Virus record (IMG/VR): IMGVR_UViG_2872180393_000002 | Length of the DNA: 17,175 nucleotides | Origin: a virus | Taxonomy: Duplodnaviria > Heunggongvirae > Uroviricota > Caudoviricetes | Direction: 5' to 3' (one strand) | Shown: positions 2,945-16,815 of the stretch, piece by piece | Numbering within the stretch: the first letter of the stretch is position 1 | Layout: each line of letters starts with the position of its first letter | Made by a program: the position numbers and the translations under genes | The notes under the pieces: generated by a model | Databases searched by the model: none | Told to the model about the DNA's origin: nothing | What the model saw: the letters and a program-made list of their open reading frames with translations, nothing else

Positions 2945-3619
2945 ATGAATTCCCAGACAACAAAAGATATTCCCTGCTTCCGTTCTTATTTGCCTGATGC
3001 CCTGCGTTTAAGATTTGAAGATAAACTGACCATCCGGGCCATCGCTCAGCGTCTGGGTCTCAGTCATTCCACAATACATACGCTTTTTCAGCGATTTCTT
3101 GCATCCGGTATCGCATGGCCATTGCCCGATTCAGTTTCATTCGCTCAACTTGACGCCATCCTTTATGCCAACAGAAAGAAGGAATTAACAGAGCCTCAAA
3201 TCAGAGAAGGCTCATGGCGAAAAGAACGGCGAACCAGCTATAGCCGTGAATTTAAGGTCCGTCTGGCTAAGCAGGCGTTACAGCCTGGGGCTGTTGTTGC
3301 CCGGATCGCCAGAGAACACGATATCAATGATAACCTGCTGTTTAAATGGAAAAGCCAGTACGAGGACGGCTTACTGAGCGATGATGACATACAGGAATGC
3401 ATGCCTGTCCCGGTGGCACTGACTGATACGCCGGAGCCGACCAGACCAGTTACAAATCCCTTCTGGCGTAACAAGCATGATGAGCGCCCTGAGGGGGCTC
3501 CCGGAAACGTCCCACGGTGCGAGCTGCATCTTAAATCAGGTGTGGTAAAACTGTTTGACCCTCTCACTCCGGAACTGTTACGGGCGCTAATCCGCGAAAT
3601 GAAAGGGGGTATCCGATGA
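2945..3619 (+). CDS. IS66-family TnpA (helix-turn-helix accessory protein), 224 aa
   Basis: First ORF of the IS66 unit, with an IS66 orf1-like HTH region (SYSREFKVRLAKQAL..ARIAREHDINDNLLFKWKSQY). ATGA overlap with tnpB. Confidence 0.8.
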   Translation: MNSQTTKDIPCFRSYLPDALRLRFEDKLTIRAIAQRLGLSHSTIHTLFQRFLASGIAWPLPDSVSFAQLDAILYANRKKELTEPQIREGSWRKERRTSYSREFKVRLAKQALQPGAVVARIAREHDINDNLLFKWKSQYEDGLLSDDDIQECMPVPVALTDTPEPTRPVTNPFWRNKHDERPEGAPGNVPRCELHLKSGVVKLFDPLTPELLRALIREMKGGIR

Positions 3620-3963
3620 TAACGCTGCCGACCGGTACCAAAATCTGGATCATCGCTGGCATCACAGATATGCGTTGTGGCTTCAATGGCCTGGCTTCGA
3701 AGGTGCAGAACACGCTGAAAGATGACCCGTTCTCCGGGCATATCTTCGTCTTCCGGGGCCGCAGTGGCAAAATGGTGAAAATACTGTGGGCCGATCGTGA
3801 CGGGTTATGCCTGTTCGCCAAACGCCTGGAACGGGGCCGCTTCGTCTGGCCGGTGACCCGGGAAGGGAAAGTGCACCTGACGCCAGCTCAGTTATCCATG
3901 CTACTGGAGGGGATCGCGTGGCAACATCCAAAACGGACAGAACGGCCTGGCATCCGGATATAA
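3616..3963 (+). CDS. IS66-family TnpB (orf2), 115 aa
   Basis: Characteristic IS66 orf2 sequence (MRCGFNGLA..FVFRGRSGKMVKILWADRDGLCLFAKRLE). Confidence 0.9.
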   Translation: MITLPTGTKIWIIAGITDMRCGFNGLASKVQNTLKDDPFSGHIFVFRGRSGKMVKILWADRDGLCLFAKRLERGRFVWPVTREGKVHLTPAQLSMLLEGIAWQHPKRTERPGIRI

Positions 3964-3982
3964 CCCGTGATAAAACAAGGGA

Positions 3983-5584
3983 ATGAACAATGAACTCCCC
4001 GATGATATTGAGCTGCTTAAAGCCATGTTGCGTAAGCAACAGAGTCGGCTTCGACAGTATGCCTGTCAGGTCGCGGGCTATGAGCAGGAAATTGAACGGC
4101 TGAAAGCGCAACTCGACAGGTTGCGTCGTATGTTGTTCGGCCAGAGTTCAGAGAAAAAGCGTCATAAGCTTGAAAATCAGATCCGACAGGCAGAAAAACG
4201 ACTGTCGGAACTGGAAAACCGGCTGAACACAGCCAGAAATCTTCTGGAAGATGCATCGTCAGTCACAGATTCACCTGACACCAGTCCCCCGTCAGAAAAC
4301 CCGATCGCCAGTAAGCCTGAATCCCCGGGACGAAAATCTTCACGAAAACCGCTGCCGGCAGAACTTCCCCGGGAGACACATCGCCTTCTGCCTGCTGAAA
4401 CCAGTTGCCCGGCCTGTGGAGGTGTTCTGAAAGAAATGGGGGAAACAATCTCAGAGCAACTGGATATCATTAATACCGCCTTTAAAGTTATCGAAACCAT
4501 ACGTCCCAAACTGGCCTGTAGCCGGTGTGATGTCATCGTTCAGGCACCACTTCCCCCTAAACCGATCGAACGCGGTTATGCCAGTGCAGAGTTACTTGCA
4601 CGGATCCTGGTCAGCAAATATATGGAACATATCCCTTTATATCGCCAGTCAGAAATATACGCGCGACAGGGCGTGGAGCTGAGCCGTAATACCATGGTGC
4701 GCTGGGTATCAGAAATGGCAGACAAACTCCGTCCTCTGTATATAGCGCTGAATGACTATGTTCTGGAGGCAGGAAAGGTGCACGCAGATGACACTCCGGT
4801 GAAAGTACTGGCCCCGGGGAACGGAAAGACGAAAACGGGTCGTCTGTGGGTATACGTCAGGGATGATCGTAATGCGGGTTCATCCCTGCCGGCAGCCGTC
4901 TGGTTCGCGTATTCGGCAGATCGCAAAGGAGAACATCCGCAGCGCCACCTGGCAAAGTATCAGGGCGTACTGCAGGCTGATGCCTATGCAGGTTATAACG
5001 TACTGTACGAAACGGGCCGGGTGAAGGAAGCCGGGTGCCAGGCCCACGCCCGCCGAAAAATCCATGACGAGGATGTGCGCCGTCCGACAGAAATGACTCA
5101 GGAAGCGCTCAGACGGATAGCAGAGTTATACGACATAGAAGCGGAGATACGTGGCAGTCCGGCAGAGGAACGGCTTGCAGTCAGAAAAGCCAGAAGCGTC
5201 CAGTTGATGCAGTCGTTGTACGACTGGATACAGTTGCAGAGGAAAACGCTGTCGAAACATGCGGAGATGGCGAAGGCGTTCGACTATATCCTGAATCACT
5301 GGAATGCGCTGAACGAGTTCTGTCGTGACGGCTGGGTGGAAATAGACAACAACATCGGTGAAAACGCGTTACGATCGGTGGCGGTTGGAAGAAAAAATTA
5401 TCTCTTTTTCGGCTCAGACAAGGGAGGAGAAAGTGCGGCGATCATCTACAGTCTGCAGGTCACCTGCAAACAGAACGAAGTGGAGCCGGAGGACTGGTTG
5501 CGCGAAGTGATCGAGAAGCTCAATGACTGGCCGTCGAACCAAGTGCATGAACTGCTGCCCTGGAACTTCTCGTCTGTAAAATAA
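3983..5584 (+). CDS. IS66-family transposase TnpC (DDE), 533 aa
   Basis: N-terminal leucine zipper, CxxC..CxxC zinc finger, and a DDE core typical of IS66 TnpC. Confidence 0.9.
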
Positions 5585-5671: not shown

Positions 5672-6054
5672 TCAGAACGGAATATCATCACCGTAGGGGT
5701 CATCGTCTCCCGCTGGTGGCTGATTACCCTGTGTGCCTGTGGTTTTGCGTCTGTTCCCGCCAGGGCGTGCCGCTCGGGCACTGATTACGCTGTCGGCAAT
5801 AACCTGATAACCCTGCCGCGTTTCCCCGTTCTGTCCGGTCCACTGGCTGACCTGCATCGTGCCGGATACGCTGGCAACGTCGCCTTTTTGATGTTTAGCC
5901 AGGAAGTCGGCCTGCTTACCAAATGCCATCACCGATAGCCATAACGTCGCCTGTCCGTCCTGTGCCTGGCTGCATGGCAGCGATACCGCCATACGCGCCA
6001 GCGTCATCGGTGTGCCCTTGCTGGTCTGTTTTACCTGCGGGTCGTCCACCAACC
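5672..6054 (-). pseudogene. ssb: single-stranded DNA-binding protein, C-terminal 128 codons; gene interrupted by IS600-like copy A
   Basis: OB-fold core resembling E. coli SSB (W..V..FGK.A...KG...W) and the canonical acidic tail DDDPYGDDIPF. The N-terminus of the 143-aa ORF in the track is read through from the IS end. Confidence 0.8.
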
Positions 6055-6118
6055 TGAGGTAGCCTGAGTTTAACGGACACTCCTTCCTGAAATAGAATGG
6101 CATCAGAAGGAGCTAATA

Positions 6119-6421
6119 ATGAGCAGAAAAACCCAACGTTACTCTAAAGAGTTCAAAGCCGAAGCTGTCAGAACGGTTCTTGAAAATCAACTTTCGATCA
6201 GTGAAGGCGCTTCCCGATTATCCCTTCCTGAAGGCACTTTAGGACAATGGGTTACCGCCGCCAGAAAAGGGCTCGGTACTCCTGGTTCCCGCACGGTGGC
6301 TGAACTGGAATCTGAAATTCTGCAACTGCGTAAGGCGTTAAATGAAGCTCGCCTTGAGCGAGATATATTAAAAAAAGCAACAGCGTATTTTGCACAGGAG
6401 TCGCTGAAAAATACGCGTTAA
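6119..6421 (+). CDS. IS3-family OrfA (HTH), IS600-like
   Basis: 100-aa ORF with an IS3-type HTH and leucine zipper, identical in all three copies. Confidence 0.9.
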   Translation: MSRKTQRYSKEFKAEAVRTVLENQLSISEGASRLSLPEGTLGQWVTAARKGLGTPGSRTVAELESEILQLRKALNEARLERDILKKATAYFAQESLKNTR

Positions 6422-6456
6422 TCGAACAATGGCGACAACAATTTCCCATTGAAGCG

Positions 6457-7275
6457 ATGTGTCAGGTATTTGGTGTATCCAGGAGCGGTTATTACAACTG
6501 GGTACAGCATGAACCCTCAGACAGAAAACAAAGTGATGAGCGGCTAAAACTGGAGATTAAGGTGGCACATATCCGCACTCGCGAAACATATGGAACCCGG
6601 CGGCTCCAGACGGAGCTGGCAGAGAATGGCATCATCGTTGGTCGTGACCGACTGGCACGTCTTCGTAAGGAGCTAAGGCTACGCTGTAAGCAGAAACGCA
6701 AGTTCAGAGCGACTACGAACCCGAACCACAATCTGCCAGTTGCGCCAAATCTGCTGAACCAGACGTTCGCTCCTACAGCACCAAATCAGGTCTGGGTGGC
6801 GGACCTGACGTATGTTGCCACACAGGAGGGATGGTTGTACCTAGCTGGCATCAAAGATGTTTATACGTGCGAAATTGTCGGCTACGCCATGGGAGAGCGC
6901 ATGACAAAAGAGCTGACAGGTAAAGCCCTGTTTATGGCGCTCAGGAGCCAGCGCCCACCTGCCGGGCTAATCCACCACTCTGATCGAGGTTCACAGTACT
7001 GCGCATACGATTACCGGGTCATACAGGAGCAGTTTGGTCTGAAAACATCAATGTCGCGTAAAGGTAACTGTTACGACAACGCTCCGATGGAAAGCTTCTG
7101 GGGAACGCTGAAAAATGAGAGCCTGAGCCACTATCGTTTTAATAACCGGGATGAAGACATCTCAGTAATACGGGAATACATTGAGATTTTCTACAATCGT
7201 CAGCGTCGTCACTCTCGTCTGGGGAATATCTCCCCGGCAGCCTTCAGGGAAAAATATCATCATATGGCTGCTTAA
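6457..7275 (+). CDS. IS3-family OrfB (DDE integrase-type transposase catalytic domain); expressed as an OrfAB fusion by -1 frameshifting
   Basis: DDE / rve-type motifs (WVADLTY..., HHSDRGSQY..., NAPMESFWGTLKNE). The frame is open upstream of the first ATG back to the slippery site. Confidence 0.9.
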   Translation: MCQVFGVSRSGYYNWVQHEPSDRKQSDERLKLEIKVAHIRTRETYGTRRLQTELAENGIIVGRDRLARLRKELRLRCKQKRKFRATTNPNHNLPVAPNLLNQTFAPTAPNQVWVADLTYVATQEGWLYLAGIKDVYTCEIVGYAMGERMTKELTGKALFMALRSQRPPAGLIHHSDRGSQYCAYDYRVIQEQFGLKTSMSRKGNCYDNAPMESFWGTLKNESLSHYRFNNRDEDISVIREYIEIFYNRQRRHSRLGNISPAAFREKYHHMAA

Positions 7276-7318
7276 AAAAAGAACAAATGGTAGTGTCCGC
7301 TATTGCCAGTACACCTCA

Positions 7319-7349
7319 ACCGTCCGTAAGCTGCTATCTGTGCTGTCAT
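7319..7349 (-). pseudogene. ssb: ssb N-terminal fragment (first 10 codons, MTAQIAAYGR), separated from the rest by IS600-like copy A
   Basis: ATG at 7347-7349 with a GAGGTGG RBS. Removing the IS and one copy of the ACC duplication restores one continuous SSB frame. Confidence 0.7.
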
Positions 7350-7544
7350 GATTCCACCTCTCCGGTTTTAACGTTGATGGTTGTTACCTGTTCCGCTTCG
7401 GCAATCTCCCGTTCTGTCAGCGTGGCAAAGTTTGCCGCTGCTGTGGTCATGAATGCGCTTATCAGGTCGGGATGTTCCTTCGCGTATCCTTCCCCGCGTG
7501 GCGGTCTATCGTTCTGATTGCCACCTTTAAAGCGTGCTCTGTCA
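7346..7544 (-). other. two candidate micro-ORFs (7461-7544, 27 codons; 7346-7450, 34 codons) upstream of ssb, the second overlapping the ssb start in an ATGA arrangement
   Basis: Open frames only. Ribosome-binding sites are weak and no family is recognisable. Confidence 0.2.
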
Positions 7545-7671
7545 TGTCTAACGCGCGATATTTCGGTTCTGTTCTGTCTCTGCGTTTTTTGAGTGATTTA
7601 TTAAATTTTCCTGAAGTGTGCATGTTTATTTTTACCCCCTCGTTTAAAAAGTTTTGAGTTGTGCCTCCCCT

Positions 7672-7887
7672 TGTCTACCTTATCTACCTTGCTGGCCCTC
7701 ATGCCAGTAATGGCGCGGCTTTCAGCGGGGTAGAGTGCTTTTATCCACTATCTACCCCGTGTCTACCTCCCTGTCTGATTCAGGTAAAATCAGGTAGAGA
7801 GGGTAGATAGTGGGTAGACAGTAAAAAAAGCTGTCTACCTAACTTAATGTACTGAATTAAATGTATTTTCCTTTGCTCAGGTAGACA
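7672..7887. repeat. iteron array, putative replication origin: 8-bp motif TGTCTACC / TATCTACC in both orientations, with a flanking AT-rich region
   Basis: Direct copies at 7672, 7681, 7749, 7760 and 7832. Inverted copies (GGTAGACA / GGTAGATA / GGTAGAG) at 7728, 7793, 7802, 7813 and 7880. The array lies immediately 3' of the primase-helicase gene. Confidence 0.6.
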
Positions 7888-7901
7888 GCAATTACAAAAA
7901 A

Positions 7902-8246
7902 TTATAAAAACGCGTCGCACTCGTCTGTTGTTATTGCGTTAGTCTGCGTTACCCCCTTAACTTTCCGCGTAATATATTCATGTCCGTAAACTTTTGCGGC
8001 AGGCTTCATAGCCTTGCCAAAGTCATTTACGTTTAGCGGTTTGCTCCTGCCTGCGTATGCCATAAACGCCAGATAGACGCGGTAAAGGCTGTTCCTGGTC
8101 GTGTACTTCACTGAATCACCACCGCCACCCATCATCAGGCCGCGCGCTTCCTCCAGAAAATTCAGGAACTGGCAAAACTCAATAACCGGATCCGTCTGTT
8201 GCTTTATTGCCAGTGCTTCATCACCGTCACGCTGTTCCAGTAGTAA
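7902..8246 (-). pseudogene. primase-helicase C-terminal fragment (about 115 codons, candidate origin-binding domain), cut off by IS600-like copy B
   Basis: Removing the IS and one TAA duplication joins this frame (LLLEQRDGDEALAIKQ...TTDECDAFL) in phase to the ORF at 9511-10923. Confidence 0.7.
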
Positions 8247-8289
8247 TGAGGTGTACTGGCAATAGCGGACACTACCATTTGTTCTTTTT

Positions 8290-9108
8290 TTAAGCAGCCA
8301 TCTGATGATATTTTTCCCTGAAGGCTGCCGGGGAGATATTCCCCAGACGAGAGTGACGACGCTGACGATTGTAGAAAATCTCAATGTATTCCCGTATTAC
8401 TGAGATGGCTTCATCCCGGTTATTAAAACGATAGTGGCTCAGGCTCTCATTTTTCAGCGTTCCCCAGAAGCTTTCCATCGGAGCGTTGTCGTAACAGTTA
8501 CCTTTACGCGACATTGATGTTTTCAGACCAAACTGCTCCTGTATGACCCGGTAATCGTATGCGCAGTACTGTGAACCTCGATCAGAGTGGTGGATTAGCC
8601 CGGCAGGTGGGCGCTGGCTCCTGAGCGCCATAAACAGGGCTTTACCTGTCAGCTCTTTTGTCATGCGCTCTCCCATGGCGTAGCCGACAATTTCGCACGT
8701 ATAAACATCTTTGATGCCAGCTAGGTACAACCATCCCTCCTGTGTGGCAACATACGTCAGGTCCGCCACCCAGACCTGATTTGGTGCTGTAGGAGCGAAC
8801 GTCTGGTTCAGCAGATTTGGCGCAACTGGCAGATTGTGGTTCGGGTTCGTAGTCGCTCTGAACTTGCGTTTCTGCTTACAGCGTAGCCTTAGCTCCTTAC
8901 GAAGACGTGCCAGTCGGTCACGACCAACGATGATGCCATTCTCTGCCAGCTCCGTCTGGAGCCGCCGGGTTCCATATGTTTCGCGAGTGCGGATATGTGC
9001 CACCTTAATCTCCAGTTTTAGCCGCTCATCACTTTGTTTTCTGTCTGAGGGTTCATGCTGTACCCGGTTGTAATAACCGCTCCTGGATACACCAAATACC
9101 TGACACAT
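8290..9108 (-). CDS. IS3-family OrfB (DDE), copy B
   Basis: Matches copy A except for point differences (W to R near the N-terminus, D to A, H to Q near the C-terminus). Confidence 0.9.
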   Translation of the reverse strand: MCQVFGVSRSGYYNRVQHEPSDRKQSDERLKLEIKVAHIRTRETYGTRRLQTELAENGIIVGRDRLARLRKELRLRCKQKRKFRATTNPNHNLPVAPNLLNQTFAPTAPNQVWVADLTYVATQEGWLYLAGIKDVYTCEIVGYAMGERMTKELTGKALFMALRSQRPPAGLIHHSDRGSQYCAYDYRVIQEQFGLKTSMSRKGNCYDNAPMESFWGTLKNESLSHYRFNNRDEAISVIREYIEIFYNRQRRHSRLGNISPAAFREKYHQMAA

Positions 9109-9143
9109 CGCTTCAATGGGAAATTGTTGTCGCCATTGTTCGA

Positions 9144-9446
9144 TTAACGCGTATTTTTCAGCGACTCCTGTGCAAAATACGCTGTTGCTTTTTTTAATAT
9201 ATCTCGCTCAAGGCGAGCTTCATTTAACGCCTTACGCAGTTGCAGAATTTCAGATTCCAGTTCAGCCACCGTGCGGGAACCAGGAGTACCGAGCCCTTTT
9301 CTGGCGGCGGTAACCCATTGTCCTAAAGTGCCTTCAGGAAGGGATAATCGGGAAGCGCCTTCACTGATCGAAAGTTGATTTTCAAGAACCGTTCTGACAG
9401 CTTCGGCTTTGAACTCTTTAGAGTAACGTTGGGTTTTTCTGCTCAT
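9144..9446 (-). CDS. IS3-family OrfA, copy B
   Basis: Identical to OrfA of copy A. Confidence 0.9.
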   Translation of the reverse strand: MSRKTQRYSKEFKAEAVRTVLENQLSISEGASRLSLPEGTLGQWVTAARKGLGTPGSRTVAELESEILQLRKALNEARLERDILKKATAYFAQESLKNTR

Positions 9447-9507
9447 TATTAGCTCCTTCTGATGCCATTCTATTTCAGGAAGGAGTGTCCGTTAAACTCA
9501 GGCTACC

Positions 9508-10923
9508 TCATAAAGCCCGTGCCTTCTCAGGGTCGGTAAAGTTCGCCAGCAATCGGCGGATAATAACGGGGATTTCAGCCGCAATCTTTTCCGGTAGCTC
9601 CCTGTCTTTTTCGGCCTCACTGACGATATTGTCGAAACGGAAAATCACGCGACGACGTGCCACACCTCCGGCCCGTTCGGTGAATATCATCGGGTTGTTG
9701 TCGGTCGCCAGCACCACCGCCCTGATTACCGCCGTGAAACGCTTTTCATATTTCGGGTTAATTTCCACGGGGTCGCCGCCCGTGATTTTCTTGATGCCCG
9801 TTCCTTCGCCTGTATATTTCGGCTGGTCAGCCAGGACGATAAGACGACTCCCGACAACCTGCGCACGTCCACCAGCATCATCAAGCGATGTCATTTCAGC
9901 GCTTACCGTGTTCTGTTTCCCTGCCAGAAGGCTGGCTATGTGTGTGAATGTACTTTTACCGCTCCCGCCGTCTCCGGTGGCCTCAATAAACATCTGCCAG
10001 TCGTACCGGTTCGCCATAATCATGTAAAGCGCGGCACATATGCGCATCATCTTGCGCGGGTCTTTTCCGGCTGCGTGATCAAGCCATTTATGAAAGTTTG
10101 GCGCGTTGTCGCGGATATTCTCCCCTGGTGCTGGTGGCGTGTACTCAATGCCGTTGTGCGTGGTGATCCAGTTCTCCGGCGTGTGCGGGGAAAATTCCCC
10201 CGTTTTCAGGTTAAGCACACCATTAGTGAACGGTAGCAAATCACTGGACGGCTCGCCCATCGGGTCAGCAATAACTTTTAACGCTTCAACGGCGTTATTA
10301 ATTGCCCGCTTGCTGAATGTGGCCCCGTGTTCTGAATAAACCGCCACCATTTCGCGGCTCAGTTCCATTGTGCTGACCGGACACCATATCCCGCCGCGCC
10401 ATACGTGAACGATTTCACTTTCCGGATGCACACAAACGCCATCAAATCGACCAGCAAGCATCTGTGCGCGCTCACTGTCTGCCATCTGCGAAAGTTGCGC
10501 CTTTTGCTTTACCGGAAGCTCAATGACCAGACCATCAGAAAGATTCTGGCGTTCACGGGCCAGATATTCGCGCCAGTTCTGCACCTCCTGGCCGTGCATA
10601 CCCTCAAGATAAAAATTTGCATCCTGTACACCTGCCGCCGCCAGCTTCTGACCAATCGCCTTGATCATTACAGGCTCAAGATGTCCGGCTCTGTATATGC
10701 GTGCTGATTTTCTGCCATCCGGCACAATTTGCAGATTATCCAGTTCGGATAGCTGCTGCTCTCCAAGCCACACAGGAGGCTCATTATCTCCGGCTGTACG
10801 CGCGTCATGTTCCTGCCACTGTTTCGCGTGTGCCCAGGCATCACTACCCGCAAAGATAATTACCTCTGTGTCTTTGTGTTTTATTCCGCGTGGCTGTTTT
10901 TTTACGTTCGGTGCCAGTTTCAT
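9508..10923 (-). pseudogene. replication protein: N-terminal primase-associated region, D5_N-like region and SF3 (P4-alpha / D5-type) helicase with Walker A GDGGSGKST; truncated, with its stop codon supplied by the IS end
   Basis: Walker A and downstream SF3 motifs. The stop TGA is the complement of the terminal TCA of the IS at 9508-9510. Confidence 0.8.
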
Positions 10924-11691: not shown

Positions 11692-12915
11692 ATGACCGAA
11701 TCCAGCGATTACGAATCCGTCCAGGTCTTTATCGGCGTTGATGTCGGTAAAGATACGCATCACGCTGTTGCCATTAATCGTTCAGGTAAACGCCTGTTCG
11801 ATAAAGCATTACCCAACGACGAAAACAAACTCAGGTCGCTAATATCTGACCTGAAACAACATGGTCAGATACTTCTGGTTGTTGATCAGCCAGCTACCAT
11901 CGGTGCGTTACCTGTCGCCGTTGCCCGCTCAGAAGGAGTCCTTGTCGGATACCTCCCTGGACTGGCCATGCGCCGCATAGCCGACTTACACGCCGGTGAA
12001 GCTAAAACTGATGCTCGTGACGCTGCCATCATTGCCGAAGCTGCCCGTACCCTGCCTCACGCGCTACGCACGCTGAAACTGGCTGACGAGCAAATCGCCG
12101 AACTCTCCATGCTCTGCGGCTTCGATGATGATCTTGCCGCACAGACAACGCAGGCCAGCAACCGTATCCGCGGCCTTCTGACCCAGATACATCCGGCACT
12201 GGAGCGCGTTCTCGGTCCGAGACTTGAGCACCCGGCGGTACTCGATCTTCTCCAGCGATATCCCTCACCAGAAAAACTCGCTTCGCTGGGTGAGAAGAAG
12301 CTGGCAGCCCAGCTCTGCAAACTTGCGCCTCGTCTGGGTAAACGCCTTGCAGCAGACATAGCTCAGGCACTGGCCGAACAAACCGTCGTCGTTCCCGGCA
12401 CGAATGCCGCTGCCGTAGTACTGCCACGTCTGGCACTCCAGCTCATCACGCTGCGTAAGCAAAGAGACGAGGTGGCGCTTGAGGTAGAACAGCGAGTTCT
12501 TGCTCACCCTCTTTACCCGGTCCTGACCAGTATGCCCGGAGTCGGTGTCAGGACCGCAGCCAGACTCCTCACCGAGGTCGCCTGCCGCGCCTTCGCCTCT
12601 GCCGCACATCTCGCTGCTTATGCTGGCCTTGCGCCGGTAACTCGGCGATCCGGCTCGTCAATACGCGGTGAGCATCCCTCGCGACGGGGTAATAAAGCTC
12701 TCAAACGGGCGTTGTTCCTGTCGGCCTTCGCCGCGCTCAGGGATCCGCTCTCCAGGGCTTACTACACCCGCAAAATGAGTCAGGGAAAACGACACAATCA
12801 GGCGCTTATCGCCCTGGCGAATACGGGCCGCGAATACAGCAACACAACCGGACGGGCAATGGTTACGCGCTTCGCGTTCAGTCCAGGCGGTGACGTGGAT
12901 GATTTGGGACTCTGA
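11692..12915 (+). CDS. IS110-family recombinase/transposase (N-terminal DEDD RuvC-like domain, C-terminal Tnp domain), 407 aa
   Basis: N-terminal IGVDVGKDTHH motif, helix-hairpin-helix MPGVGVRTAARLL, and C-terminal RRSGSSIRGEH..ALKRALFLSAF serine motif. AGGGAG RBS. Confidence 0.9.
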   Translation: MTESSDYESVQVFIGVDVGKDTHHAVAINRSGKRLFDKALPNDENKLRSLISDLKQHGQILLVVDQPATIGALPVAVARSEGVLVGYLPGLAMRRIADLHAGEAKTDARDAAIIAEAARTLPHALRTLKLADEQIAELSMLCGFDDDLAAQTTQASNRIRGLLTQIHPALERVLGPRLEHPAVLDLLQRYPSPEKLASLGEKKLAAQLCKLAPRLGKRLAADIAQALAEQTVVVPGTNAAAVVLPRLALQLITLRKQRDEVALEVEQRVLAHPLYPVLTSMPGVGVRTAARLLTEVACRAFASAAHLAAYAGLAPVTRRSGSSIRGEHPSRRGNKALKRALFLSAFAALRDPLSRAYYTRKMSQGKRHNQALIALANTGREYSNTTGRAMVTRFAFSPGGDVDDLGL

Positions 12916-13149
12916 CGCACCAAAGGCGATAAAGCGCCAGAGAAAGGCGGTTTGAGAATGTACAAGGGTAGGGGTAGTAGCCATGTCGGCAGCCTCCTTG
13001 ATTGATGGAATGTAACCACCGCCGGAGGTCCTAAGCTCGCTGGCGGTGGACTGTACAGGGTTAGGACTACTGGCAATCAAGGGAACCAGCCTACCCGAAG
13101 GTAGCCCCATACAGCCCACCATTGTATAGGTGTGCGTGTGCGTCGATAC

Positions 13150-13171
13150 AAAAAAAGACGCGTGCGGCGTC
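13150..13171 (-). terminator. candidate rho-independent terminator on the minus strand inside a roughly 500-bp non-coding, structured region
   Basis: Hairpin GACGC-gtgcg-GCGTC at 13157-13171, preceded on the plus strand by A7 (13150-13156), which is a U7 tail on the minus strand. Confidence 0.3.
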
Positions 13172-13432
13172 TGTATCGCCTCGATTGTCAGCGGGGTCCT
13201 AATCCCGGCACCCGTTTTATAAGGTGCACGCGAATCATAGCCTTGGCTGGCAGTGGCGATCAACTGGTTTTTCATACCCGCTTTATTCAGGTTGTGCGAG
13301 TCCCGCCCTTGCAGGTGTGTGGTATGATTTAACATAGCTACCTCGATACTGTTGCTATCGTTGGTGGTTAGACGCCCTGCATGTGTTGCGAGCACTGCGG
13401 GGCGTTGCTTAATTTGAGTGACAAAACTCAAA

Positions 13433-15552: not shown

Positions 15553-15616
15553 TGAGGTAGCCTGAGTTTAACGGACACTCCTTCCTGAAATAGAATGGCA
15601 TCAGAAGGAGCTAATA

Positions 15617-15919
15617 ATGAGCAGAAAAACCCAACGTTACTCTAAAGAGTTCAAAGCCGAAGCTGTCAGAACGGTTCTTGAAAATCAACTTTCGATCAGT
15701 GAAGGCGCTTCCCGATTATCCCTTCCTGAAGGCACTTTAGGACAATGGGTTACCGCCGCCAGAAAAGGGCTCGGTACTCCTGGTTCCCGCACGGTGGCTG
15801 AACTGGAATCTGAAATTCTGCAACTGCGTAAGGCGTTAAATGAAGCTCGCCTTGAGCGAGATATATTAAAAAAAGCAACAGCGTATTTTGCACAGGAGTC
15901 GCTGAAAAATACGCGTTAA
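15617..15919 (+). CDS. IS3-family OrfA, copy C
   Basis: Identical to OrfA of copies A and B. Confidence 0.9.
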   Translation: MSRKTQRYSKEFKAEAVRTVLENQLSISEGASRLSLPEGTLGQWVTAARKGLGTPGSRTVAELESEILQLRKALNEARLERDILKKATAYFAQESLKNTR

Positions 15920-15954
15920 TCGAACAATGGCGACAACAATTTCCCATTGAAGCG

Positions 15955-16815
15955 ATGTGTCAGGTATTTGGTGTATCCAGGAGCGGTTATTACAACTGGG
16001 TACAGCATGAACCCTCAGACAGAAAACAAAGTGATGAGCGGCTAAAACTGGAGATTAAGGTGGCACATATCCGCACTCGCGAAACATATGGAACCCGGCG
16101 GCTCCAGACGGAGCTGGCAGAGAATGGCATCATCGTTGGTCGTGACCGACTGGCACGTCTTCGTAAGGAGCTAAGGCTACGCTGTAAGCAGAAACGCAAG
16201 TTCAGAGCGACTACGAACCCGAACCACAATCTGCCAGTTGCGCCAAATCTGCTGAACCAGACGTTCGCTCCTACAGCACCAAATCAGGTCTGGGTGGCGG
16301 ACCTGACGTATGTTGCCACACAGGAGGGATGGTTGTACCTAGCTGGCATCAAAGATGTTTATACGTGCGAAATTGTCGGCTACGCCATGGGAGAGCGCAT
16401 GACAAAAGAGCTGACAGGTAAAGCCCTGTTTATGGCGCTCAGGAGCCAGCGCCCACCTGCCGGGCTAATCCACCACTCTGATCGAGGTTCACAGTACTGC
16501 GCATACGATTACCGGGTCATACAGGAGCAGTTTGGTCTGAAAACATCAATGTCGCGTAAAGGTAACTGTTACGACAACGCTCCGATGGAAAGCTTCTGGG
16601 GAACGCTGAAAAATGAGAGCCTGAGCCACTATCGTTTTAATAACCGGGATGAAGCCATCTCAGTAATACGGGAATACATTGAGATTTTCTACAATCGTCA
16701 GCGTCGTCACTCTCGTCTGGGGAATATCTCCCGGCAGCCTTCAGGGAAAAATATCATCAGATGGCTGCTTAAAAAAAGAACAAATGGTAGTGTCCGCTAT
16801 TGCCAGTACACCTCA
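15955..16815 (+). pseudogene. IS3-family OrfB, copy C, frameshifted about 14 codons before the normal stop by a 1-bp deletion; the frame reads out of the IS to 17175
   Basis: CTCCCGGCAG here versus CTCCCCGGCAG in copies A and B. The DDE core lies upstream of the lesion and is intact. Confidence 0.8.

What the first reader, a model, noticed from the sequence alone, without database searches (positions are those of the whole stretch)
7672..7887. Dense bidirectional iteron array directly 3' of the primase-helicase gene: putative origin of replication
At least ten copies of an 8-bp motif (TGTCTACC / TATCTACC and its complement) lie within about 215 bp, flanked by AT-rich DNA. This is the typical layout of a satellite or plasmid origin bound by the C-terminal domain of its own initiator. 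The motif differs from the P4 type I iteron TGTTCACC by two bases, suggesting a related but distinct specificity.
Basis: partly seen in the sequence, partly recalled or inferred. Interest (0 to 1): 0.6.

Follow-up and report, generated by a model that had tools for sequence, protein, structure and literature searches.

The report
Replication origin of a decayed phage satellite
The repeat cluster is the replication origin of a phage-parasitic island (a PICI almost identical to the published E. coli model EcCICFT073), so it is real but already known, and in this copy insertion sequences have broken the gene for the protein that would fire it.

Summary
TRTCTACC occurs 8 times in the 17-kb window (0.52 expected), always within 7672-7887. 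Two degenerate copies (TCTCTACC, ACTCTACC) bring the count to ten, five per strand. The array starts 14 bp after the stop codon of a minus-strand helicase/initiator gene.

The region is about 96% identical to the pri-ori intergenic region of the model Gram-negative PICI EcCICFT073. That pri-ori segment was shown to drive plasmid replication, and deleting ori or pri reduced it (Fillol-Salom 2018).

Three new supporting points:
- The initiator's C-terminus is homologous to the P4 alpha origin-binding winged helix (PDB 1KA8).
- In 82 related loci the same site layout persists while the iteron sequence changes in step with substitutions in that domain.
- The half next to pri copies the P4 ori1 layout (start spacings 9/46/22/11/9 against 10/43/22/11/10). 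The distal half resembles one P4 crr unit.

This copy is a relic. IS600 splits pri between the helicase and the DNA-binding domain, a second IS600 splits ssb, the small ORF between them is truncated, and one iteron is deleted.

Verdict: already known, low interest.

The parts
7672..7887 (.). Whole iteron array, the PICI origin of replication (EcCICFT073 type): 10 iterons, 5 per strand
   Evidence: Searches give the counts and enrichment. One search shows about 96% identity to the EcCICFT073 pri-ori intergenic region. One search gives the published function.
7790..7901 (-). Half next to pri, with the P4 ori1 layout. Read in the pri sense it is F(7880-7887), AT-rich spacer, R(7832-7839), then F F F (7813-7820, 7802-7809, 7793-7800). 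Relatives carry two tandem F copies next to the pri stop. This copy has lost one through a 9-bp deletion.
   Evidence: One search gives start-to-start spacings of 9/46/22/11/9 in the intact relative L007 against 10/43/22/11/10 in P4 ori. One search aligns P4 ori with L074 (81/114 identical, z=10) and with L007 (z=5).
7840..7879 (.). 40-bp AT-rich spacer (25% GC) between inverted iterons; candidate DNA-unwinding element
   Evidence: A 35-40 bp spacer of 11-26% GC sits at the same place in all iteron classes and in P4 ori (17% GC).
7672..7770 (-). Half distal to pri, resembling a P4 crr unit. In the pri sense it is R R (7760-7767, 7749-7756), a degenerate r (7742-7749), F (7729-7736), a conserved spacer, then R R (7681-7688, 7672-7679).
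   Evidence: Each P4 crr unit shares F, a spacer containing CTGAAA, R R, then an A-run/C/T-run. The resemblance is partial.
7705..7725 (-). Non-iteron block CTGAAAGCCGCGCCATTACTG (pri sense), nearly invariant across three iteron classes; function unknown
7646..7655 (-). AAAACTTTTT block after the terminal iteron pair. It is conserved in nearly all classes examined, including loci where the two origin halves are swapped, and a similar block follows each P4 crr unit.
7902..8246 (-). 3' fragment of pri, encoding the C-terminal winged-helix origin-binding domain (last 114 aa plus stop)
   Evidence: One search gives the translation. One search matches it to PDB 1KA8 (E=1e-6). Searches give the Pfam Pox_D5 hit. 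One search shows the domain is 100% identical to the intact relative L001.
8247..9510 (-). IS600 (1264 bp) inserted in pri after about codon 470, with a TAA target duplication. It separates the helicase from the DNA-binding domain.
9511..10923 (-). 5' fragment of pri: N-terminal region, D5_N and the SF3 helicase (DUF5906). No Zn-ribbon or Toprim primase domain is detected.
   Evidence: One search shows that joining 7902-8246 to 9514-10923 restores an intact 584-aa ORF, 94.7% identical to EcCICFT073 Pri.
7462..7623 (-). First gene downstream of the origin (PHROG 1231, unknown function), truncated to 53 aa against 85-92 aa in relatives
6055..7318 (+). Second IS600 copy, inserted near the 5' end of the satellite's ssb gene (ACC target duplication). 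The rest of ssb lies at 5672-6054 on the minus strand.

Best explanation
The array is the replication origin of a Gram-negative phage-inducible chromosomal island (PICI) of the EcCICFT073 family, which reads along the minus strand of this window.

Proposed mechanism:
1. After helper-phage induction the island expresses Pri, a 584-aa SF3 helicase with a C-terminal winged-helix domain.
2. That domain recognises the 8-bp iterons (consensus TRTCTACC).
3. Pri molecules bound to the inverted iterons on either side of the 40-bp AT-rich spacer (7840-7879) assemble the helicase and open the DNA there.
4. The pri-distal iteron set (7672-7770) acts as a second binding platform, comparable to P4 crr. P4 keeps ori and crr 4.5 kb apart; here the two sit side by side.
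5. Replication then proceeds using host functions and the island's own SSB, encoded just downstream.

What is shown and what is inferred:
- Shown experimentally, for the 96%-identical EcCICFT073 sequence: pri plus this region replicate a plasmid, and deleting either reduces it.
- Shown here by computation: identity to that origin, homology of the C-terminal domain to the P4 alpha origin-binding domain, conservation of the site layout, and co-variation of iteron sequence with that domain.
- Inferred: the melting site, the role of the distal half, and the source of primers.

State of this copy: it is an origin by descent but is very probably inactive. IS600 splits pri between the helicase and the DNA-binding domain. 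A second IS600 splits ssb. The intervening ORF is truncated, one iteron next to the AT-rich spacer is deleted, and the integrase is cut by a third IS600.
For: Identity to the tested origin:
- Window 7600-7930 is about 96% identical to the EcCICFT073 pri-ori intergenic region. Gene order is the same: int, regulators, pri, ori, small ORF, ssb, capsid, decoration protein.
[quoted passage not shown] The EcCICFT073 rep gene plus putative ori maintain a ts plasmid, and deleting ori or pri reduces this.

Enrichment: 8 exact motif copies against 0.52 expected, all within 216 bp. Only one copy lies outside the arrays in 75 kb of related chromosome.

The binding protein:
- Pri residues 488-576 match PDB 1KA8, the P4 alpha origin-binding domain, at E=1e-6. 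The helicase region matches 7OLA at E=4e-15.
- Pri aligns with P4 alpha throughout the helicase and C-terminal domain.

Comparative evidence:
- All 49 representative loci analysed, with Pri 100% to 52% identical, carry 6-12 copies of a repeated core in the 330 bp 3' of pri. One search shows the same for the 82 related loci it scored. Order, orientation and spacing of the sites are conserved, but there are eight different iteron sequences.
- Iteron class tracks the C-terminal domain, not the helicase. L081 and L082 are 99.7% identical in the helicase part and 87% in the last 115 aa, and their iterons are GTGTTCAT and GTATACAT.
- NVNDFGKAM goes with TG/TA-TCTACC (n=20). NVA[ED]FSKAM goes with CC/CT-TCTACC (n=28). 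LYHAY goes with TGTTCA[C/T] and LYR[VL]Y with TCTACC.
- These residues fall in helix alpha2 and at the start of the next helix, alpha3, which is the recognition helix in this fold (PMC2777425).

P4 parallel: the P4 ori layout and spacing match the pri-proximal half.
Against: - Nothing was tested on this exact sequence, and the window copy lacks one of the two tandem iterons beside the AT-rich spacer.
- The exact limits of the published ori deletion could not be checked. Figure 2a and the primer list are not in the held text. In that paper the ori deletion reduced rather than abolished plasmid maintenance.
- Pri has no detectable primase domain, so one step of initiation is unexplained.
- The co-variation counts come from related sequences, not independent events. 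Only about four or five separate specificity switches are visible.
- The placement of the varying residues in the recognition helix rests on alignment to 1KA8 and a published description. The AlphaFold single-sequence model was too poor to use (pLDDT 55).
Confidence: 0.9

Rival explanations
1. The origin is orphaned but still competent. A co-resident PICI that encodes a Pri of the same TRTCTACC specificity could fire it in trans and amplify this IS-riddled locus in place.
For: Ten of eleven iterons, the AT-rich spacer and both conserved non-iteron blocks are intact. The pri reading frame has no lesion other than the IS600 insertion, which suggests recent decay. E. coli genomes often hold this module, and many hold more than one place matching the query.
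Against: Nothing is known about the rest of the source genome. The integrase is truncated, so excision is unlikely. One of the two iterons flanking the AT-rich spacer on the pri side is missing. In-trans firing of PICI origins has not been tested in anything I could read.
Confidence: 0.1
2. The repeats are operator sites for a transcription factor that controls the downstream ssb-capsid genes, not an origin.
For: The array fills the whole intergenic region upstream of the next co-oriented gene. PICIs encode regulators such as AlpA, and EcCICFT073 also encodes a PerC-family protein.
Against: No sigma-70-like promoter or terminator is found in 7400-8100. Repeat sequence co-varies with the Pri C-terminal domain rather than with any regulator. 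The layout matches P4 ori1. The homologous EcCICFT073 segment supports replication.
Confidence: 0.04
3. The array is a packaging signal (cos or pac) for the satellite.
For: Satellites must carry a packaging site, and repeated terminase-binding sites exist in some phages (general knowledge).
Against: The EcCICFT073 cos sites were identified as separate lambda-like cosN sequences and tested on their own plasmids. The repeats follow Pri specificity.
Confidence: 0.02
4. The cluster is a chance or low-complexity repeat with no function.
For: None beyond the short motif length.
Against: No shuffle out of 200 reaches the observed count. The layout is conserved down to 52% initiator identity while the motif sequence itself changes.
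Confidence: 0.01

Closest known systems
Origin of the Gram-negative PICI EcCICFT073 (Fillol-Salom et al. 2018, ISME J, PMC6092414)
   Same: Same element family and gene order. The sequence is about 96% identical, with the same iteron TRTCTACC and the same position immediately 3' of pri. It has iteron sets flanking an AT-rich region.
   Different: The window copy has lost one 9-bp iteron. Its pri and ssb are each split by IS600, the small downstream ORF is truncated and int is cut. It is a decayed copy.
Satellite phage P4 ori and crr, bound by the alpha protein's C-terminal winged helix (NC_001609; PDB 1KA8)
   Same: The helicase and origin-binding domain are homologous. The 8-bp iterons occur in both orientations and differ from the P4 sequence at 2 of 8 positions. 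The pri-proximal half repeats the P4 ori layout and spacing. The distal half resembles a crr unit, and crr likewise lies directly 3' of alpha.
   Different: There is a single compact cluster instead of ori and crr 4.5 kb apart. The iteron sequence differs. Pri lacks alpha's Zn-ribbon and Toprim primase domains. The island carries lambda-type capsid and decoration genes, not sid, psu or delta.
SaPI / Gram-positive PICI origins with Pri-Rep initiators
   Same: [quoted passage not shown] The SF3 helicase region matches PDB 7OLA, which from memory is the SaPI5 primase-helicase.
   Different: There is no sequence similarity in the origin itself. The DNA-binding domain here is of the P4 alpha type.
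Iteron plasmid origins (pSC101, R6K, P1 class)
   Same: The general logic is shared: several initiator-binding repeats next to an AT-rich unwinding region.
   Different: From general knowledge, those use 17-22 bp direct repeats bound by a RepA/pi-type protein, plus DnaA boxes, and they recruit host DnaB. Here the repeats are 8 bp and inverted as well as direct, the initiator is itself a helicase, and the only DnaA-box-like sequence (TTATCCACT, 7741-7749) is not conserved in sister classes.

Membership tests
Gram-negative PICI origin (EcCICFT073 type) | Lies immediately 3' of the pri/rep gene, in the same transcriptional direction | tested here: met
   The last iteron ends 14 bp from the pri stop. 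The arrangement is the same in L001 and EcCICFT073.
Gram-negative PICI origin (EcCICFT073 type) | [quoted passage not shown] | tested here: met
   Ten iterons are present. A 40-bp spacer of 25% GC lies between inverted iterons.
Gram-negative PICI origin (EcCICFT073 type) | Sequence homology to the experimentally tested EcCICFT073 origin | tested here: met
   Mean column identity is 96% over 344 alignment columns.
Gram-negative PICI origin (EcCICFT073 type) | Sits in a PICI: int, alpA-type regulator region, pri, then late or interference genes, about 10 kb | tested here: met
   The window is collinear with EcCICFT073 apart from IS insertions. It carries an integrase fragment, an Ash-family gene, capsid E, decoration D and SSB.
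Gram-negative PICI origin (EcCICFT073 type) | Supports Pri-dependent autonomous replication | not testable with these tools
   This was shown for EcCICFT073. In this copy pri is interrupted by IS600.
P4 ori/crr system | Initiator with an SF3 helicase plus a C-terminal winged-helix origin-binding domain homologous to P4 alpha | tested here: met
   1KA8 matches at E=1e-6 over 89 residues. The alignment to alpha runs throughout the helicase and the C-terminal domain. Pfam finds D5_N, DUF5906 and Pox_D5.
P4 ori/crr system | Type-1 iteron TGTTCACC | tested here: not met
   The window iteron is TRTCTACC. The P4 genome has no exact copy of TGTCTACC. More distant relatives (L074-L078) do use TGTTCACC.
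P4 ori/crr system | ori1 layout: F F, AT-rich spacer, R, F F F, with start spacings 10/43/22/11/10 | tested here: met
   The intact relative L007 has 9/46/22/11/9. The window has the same layout minus one F.
P4 ori/crr system | Two separate cis elements, ori and crr, about 4.5 kb apart | tested here: not met
   There is a single cluster in the window, in L001 and in EcCICFT073.
P4 ori/crr system | Initiator carries its own Zn-ribbon/Toprim primase | tested here: not met
   Pfam finds these domains in P4 alpha and in the Morganella homolog but not in EcCICFT073-type Pri. They appear as a gap in alignment A2.
Iteron plasmid origin (RepA/pi type) | Long (17-22 bp) direct repeats, conserved DnaA boxes and a RepA-family initiator | tested here: not met
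   The repeats are 8 bp and lie in both orientations. The DnaA-like 9-mer is not conserved. The initiator is an SF3 helicase.

The most novel reading that the evidence does not exclude
The Gram-negative PICI origin may be a compact fusion of the two cis elements that satellite P4 keeps 4.5 kb apart. The pri-proximal half would correspond to ori1 and the distal half to one crr unit. If so, the P4 and PICI replication modules share ancestry, whereas the 2018 paper argued that the two satellite families evolved independently. The natural variants would also give a readable recognition code: N->A and G->S at the start of helix alpha3 accompany TG->CC in the iteron, and H<->R in alpha2 accompanies TTCA<->CTAC. 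The initiator's DNA-binding domain and the origin appear to be exchanged together between otherwise 98-99% identical helicases. I found no paper stating this in the held library, but older P4 papers are not searchable there.
Probability: 0.5. Interest if true: 0.4.

Novelty: already known. Interest (0 to 1): 0.22.

Why it matters
For genome annotation it settles the feature. It is the EcCICFT073-type PICI origin, sitting in an island that insertion sequences have dismantled, which is typical of Shigella-like genomes.

The comparative results may have modest wider use.
- They tie the PICI origin to P4 ori and crr.
- They show which residues of the initiator's DNA-binding domain change when iteron specificity changes. 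That could guide the design of mutually compatible synthetic satellite replicons.
- They raise the question of how an initiator without a primase domain gets primers.

Tried and rejected
- DnaA box: TTATCCACT at 7741-7749 matches the DnaA-box consensus at 8 of 9 positions. It is absent at the same place in sister iteron classes (L029, L053), and L074 has a degenerate iteron there. I read it as a degenerate iteron.
- Promoter and terminator scan of 7400-8100: nothing found.
- Rfam: nothing at gathering score in the array. At relaxed threshold only miRNA-precursor noise appears, caused by the iteron dyad at 7740-7829.
- IHF-like site in the AT-rich spacer: a TCA[AG]-N4-[AT]T[AT] pattern recurs in 8 of 13 spacers examined, but it carries too little information to claim.
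- AlphaFold on the C-terminal domain without an alignment: pLDDT 55, so the model was not used and no fold search was run.
- The search for homologous proteins returned only hits at least 99% identical. The genome-contig scan returned just 3 loci. Diversity came from IMG/VR instead.
- A full-text search for TGTTCACC returned unrelated primer sequences. 'cis replication region' found nothing. The P4 iterons were taken from the GenBank annotation.
- The supplement of PMC6092414 held as text has the plasmid list but no primer sequences, so the published ori-deletion boundaries could not be mapped.

Full report
**1. The observation**

TRTCTACC has 8 matches on both strands of the window, all between 7672 and 7887. 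Shuffles predict 0.52, and none of 200 reaches 8. The 6-bp core TCTACC has 11 matches, 10 of them in the same 216 bp. The two extra copies are TCTCTACC (7793-7800) and ACTCTACC (7729-7736), both on the minus strand.

The array ends 14 bp from the TAA stop (7902-7904) of a minus-strand gene. The clearest AT-rich tract (7840-7879, 25% GC) lies inside the array between two inverted iterons. Further AT-rich DNA lies on both sides.

**2. What the locus is**

The flanking gene encodes D5_N, an SF3 helicase region (DUF5906) and a Pox_D5 C-terminal domain. It is split at 8247-9510 by a 1264-bp IS600 with a TAA target duplication.

A megablast of 7280-8250 found the region nearly full-length in 491 complete E. 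coli genomes. In an intact relative it lies in a ~10-kb island between phoQ and roxA. The gene order there is int, HTH regulator, Icd-like protein, DUF4222, 'DNA primase family protein', a 288-bp intergenic region, a small ORF, ssb, major capsid and head decoration.

The same island at the same site in strain CFT073 is EcCICFT073, the model Gram-negative PICI. Window 7600-7930 aligns to the EcCICFT073 pri-ori intergenic region at about 96% identity. The only structural difference is a 9-bp deletion that removes one of two tandem iterons next to the pri stop.

**3. What is already published**

Fillol-Salom et al. 2018 (PMC6092414) make three relevant statements:
- In Gram-negative PICIs the region immediately 3' of the replication initiator gene is the origin.
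- The EcCICFT073 rep gene plus the putative ori site allow a thermosensitive plasmid to give colonies at 44 C, and deleting ori or pri significantly reduces this.

A later paper repeats that an ori lies downstream of pri (PMC10111431). I could not map the exact limits of the published deletion, because the figure and primers are not in the held text.

**4. The protein that should bind it**

With IS600 and one copy of the target duplication removed, pri is an intact 584-aa ORF. It is 94.7% identical to EcCICFT073 Pri, and its last 115 aa are 100% identical to the relative L001.

Residues 488-576 match PDB 1KA8, the origin-binding winged helix of P4 alpha, at E=1e-6. Residues 194-432 match the helicase region of 7OLA at E=4e-15. 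Pri aligns with P4 alpha throughout the helicase and the C-terminal domain but lacks alpha's N-terminal ~250 residues. Pfam finds Zn_Ribbon_Prim and Toprim_3 in alpha and in a Morganella homolog, but not in EcCICFT073-type Pri.

The IS600 insertion falls after about residue 470. This is the junction between the helicase and the DNA-binding domain.

**5. Comparative test**

The loci came from one genome scan (L004-L006) and one IMG/VR scan (L007-L086). Their Pri identity to EcCICFT073 ranges from 100% to 52%. The 49 representative loci analysed all have 6-12 copies of a repeated core within 330 bp 3' of pri, and one search finds the same across the 82 loci it scored.

Eight iteron sequences occur:
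- cTGTCTACC
- CCCTCTACC
- TTGTCTACCT
- TaTCTACC
- ACTGTTCACC (the P4 sequence)
- ACTGTTCAC
- GTGTTCAT
- GTATACAT

The order, orientation and spacing of the sites stay the same. In EcCICFT073-type loci the starts, counted from the pri stop, are 17+, 26+, a 40-bp AT-rich spacer, 72-, 94+, 105+, 114+, then 145-, 156-, 178+, a GC-rich spacer, 224- and 233-. The spacer after the first pair is 35-40 bp and 11-26% GC in every class.

**6. Co-variation with the binding domain**

Pairs with nearly identical helicases but different iterons differ mostly in the last 115 aa:

| Pair | Identity, helicase part | Identity, last 115 aa |
|---|---|---|
| L081 / L082 | 99.7% | 87% |
| L007 / L029 | 97.5% | 92.2% |
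| L007 / L053 | 91.8% | 84.3% |
| L007 / L068 | 82% | 61% |

Across the 82 loci, specific residue patterns go with specific iterons:

| Residue pattern | Iteron feature | Loci |
|---|---|---|
| NVNDFGKAM | TCTACC preceded by TG/TA (mean 8.8 of 10.7 sites, none by CC/CT) | 20 |
| NVA[ED]FSKAM | TCTACC preceded by CC/CT/TT/CA (group means 7.3-11 sites) | 28 |
| LYHAY | TGTTCA[C/T] | all loci of that class |
| LYR[VL]Y | TCTACC | all loci of that class |
| FSEGM | GTTCAT | 3 |
| FAEGM | ATACAT | 3 |

A published alignment places the two conserved tyrosines in helix alpha2 of 1KA8 and describes alpha3 and the wing as the DNA-contacting parts of this fold (PMC2777425). The varying residues therefore sit in alpha2 and at the start of alpha3. 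That placement is an inference from alignment, because my structure model was too poor to use. The loci are related to one another, so these counts represent roughly four or five independent switches, not 82.

**7. Relation to P4**

The P4 GenBank record annotates type-1 repeats (TGTTCACC) in two places. One is crr (4291-4590), directly 3' of alpha. The other is ori (9086-9809), about 4.5 kb away.

Read in the alpha sense, P4 ori is F F, a 35-bp spacer of 17% GC, R, then F F F. Its start spacings are 10/43/22/11/10, against 9/46/22/11/9 for the pri-proximal half of the PICI origin. Global alignment of P4 ori with that half gives 81/114 identities for L074 (z=10 against shuffles) and 64/114 for L007 (z=5).

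The distal half resembles one crr unit. Both have an F iteron, a spacer containing CTGAAA, two R iterons, and then an A-run/C/T-run. This second resemblance is only partial. The PICI has a single cluster. In short, the PICI origin looks like P4 ori and one crr unit placed side by side, 3' of the initiator gene.

**8. Mechanism**

I commit to the following model:
1. Pri binds the iterons through its winged helix.
2. It assembles on the inverted iterons flanking 7840-7879 and melts that tract.
3. The distal iteron set serves as an auxiliary binding platform, as crr does in P4.

The binding protein is supported by homology and co-variation. The replication function is supported by the published experiment on a 96%-identical sequence. 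The melting site and the role of the distal half are inferred. Priming is unexplained because Pri lacks a primase domain.

**9. State of this copy**

The whole island is present in the window but dismantled:
- IS600 in pri.
- IS600 in ssb, with an ACC target duplication.
- IS600 abutting a truncated integrase at 15553.
- An IS66-family element at about 2945-5584.
- An IS110-family element at about 11692-12915.
- The small ORF after the origin cut to 53 aa.

These rest. The origin is therefore a relic, and it could fire only if a matching Pri were supplied in trans.

**10. Alternatives**

- Transcriptional operator array: not supported. No promoter-like site is found, and the repeats follow Pri rather than any regulator.
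- Packaging site: contradicted. The cos sites of EcCICFT073 were mapped and tested separately.
- Known RNA family: none matches.
- Chance: excluded.

**11. Verdict**

The feature is already known. Interest is low. The modest added value lies in the P4 ori/crr correspondence and the iteron-domain co-variation.

Noticed in passing
window 13039-13126 (-) and 13151-13227 (-): Rfam hits above gathering score to C4 antisense RNA (78.6 bits) and isrK (64 bits). These are the families that detect the P4 CI immunity RNA and its target, so this PICI seems to carry a P4-type RNA immunity system (compare PMC10111431).
   Followed up: no
window 9511-10923 plus 7902-8246 (-); L002:2241-3995: The protein annotated 'DNA primase family protein' (Pri) has no detectable Zn-ribbon or Toprim primase domain. 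P4 alpha and a 794-aa Morganella homolog have both. It is not clear what primes replication at this origin.
   Followed up: partly
L082, L084, L085 (330 bp after the pri stop): These origins are hybrids. The pri-proximal iterons are GTATACAT, but several distal sites keep GTGTTCAT, the iteron of their 99.7%-identical-helicase sisters L081, L083 and L086. This may be a recombination breakpoint inside the origin or an unfinished specificity switch.
   Followed up: partly
L068-L071 (330 bp after the pri stop): The two origin halves are in swapped order. The crr-like half comes first and the ori1-like half (F F, AT-rich spacer, R, F F F) lies next to the downstream gene.
   Followed up: no
window 7705-7725 and 7646-7655: Two non-iteron blocks are more conserved than the iterons across iteron classes: CTGAAAGCCGCGCCATTACTG and AAAACTTTTT (pri sense). 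The second block follows the terminal iteron pair even in the loci with swapped halves, and a similar block follows each P4 crr unit. Their function is unknown.
   Followed up: partly
window 7845-7865, inside the AT-rich spacer: A short core, TCAGTRCATTA, is kept at the same place in several iteron classes, and P4 ori has CAGTAAGTTA there. It loosely resembles an IHF consensus but is too weak to call.
   Followed up: partly
window 6055-7318, 8247-9510, 15553-16815; about 2945-5584; about 11692-12915: There are three 99.7-99.8% identical IS600 copies, in ssb, in pri and abutting a truncated integrase. There is also an IS66-family and an IS110-family element in a single ~10-kb island. This IS load is typical of Shigella-like genomes.
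   Followed up: partly
L014, L016, L018-L020, L022 and others compared with L007-L011: Initiators 98-99% identical overall to EcCICFT073 Pri fall into two iteron classes, TG-TCTACC and CC-TCTACC. They are distinguished only by N->A and G->S (plus D/E) in NVNDFGKAM. The binding domain and the origin appear to be exchanged together as a unit.
   Followed up: partly
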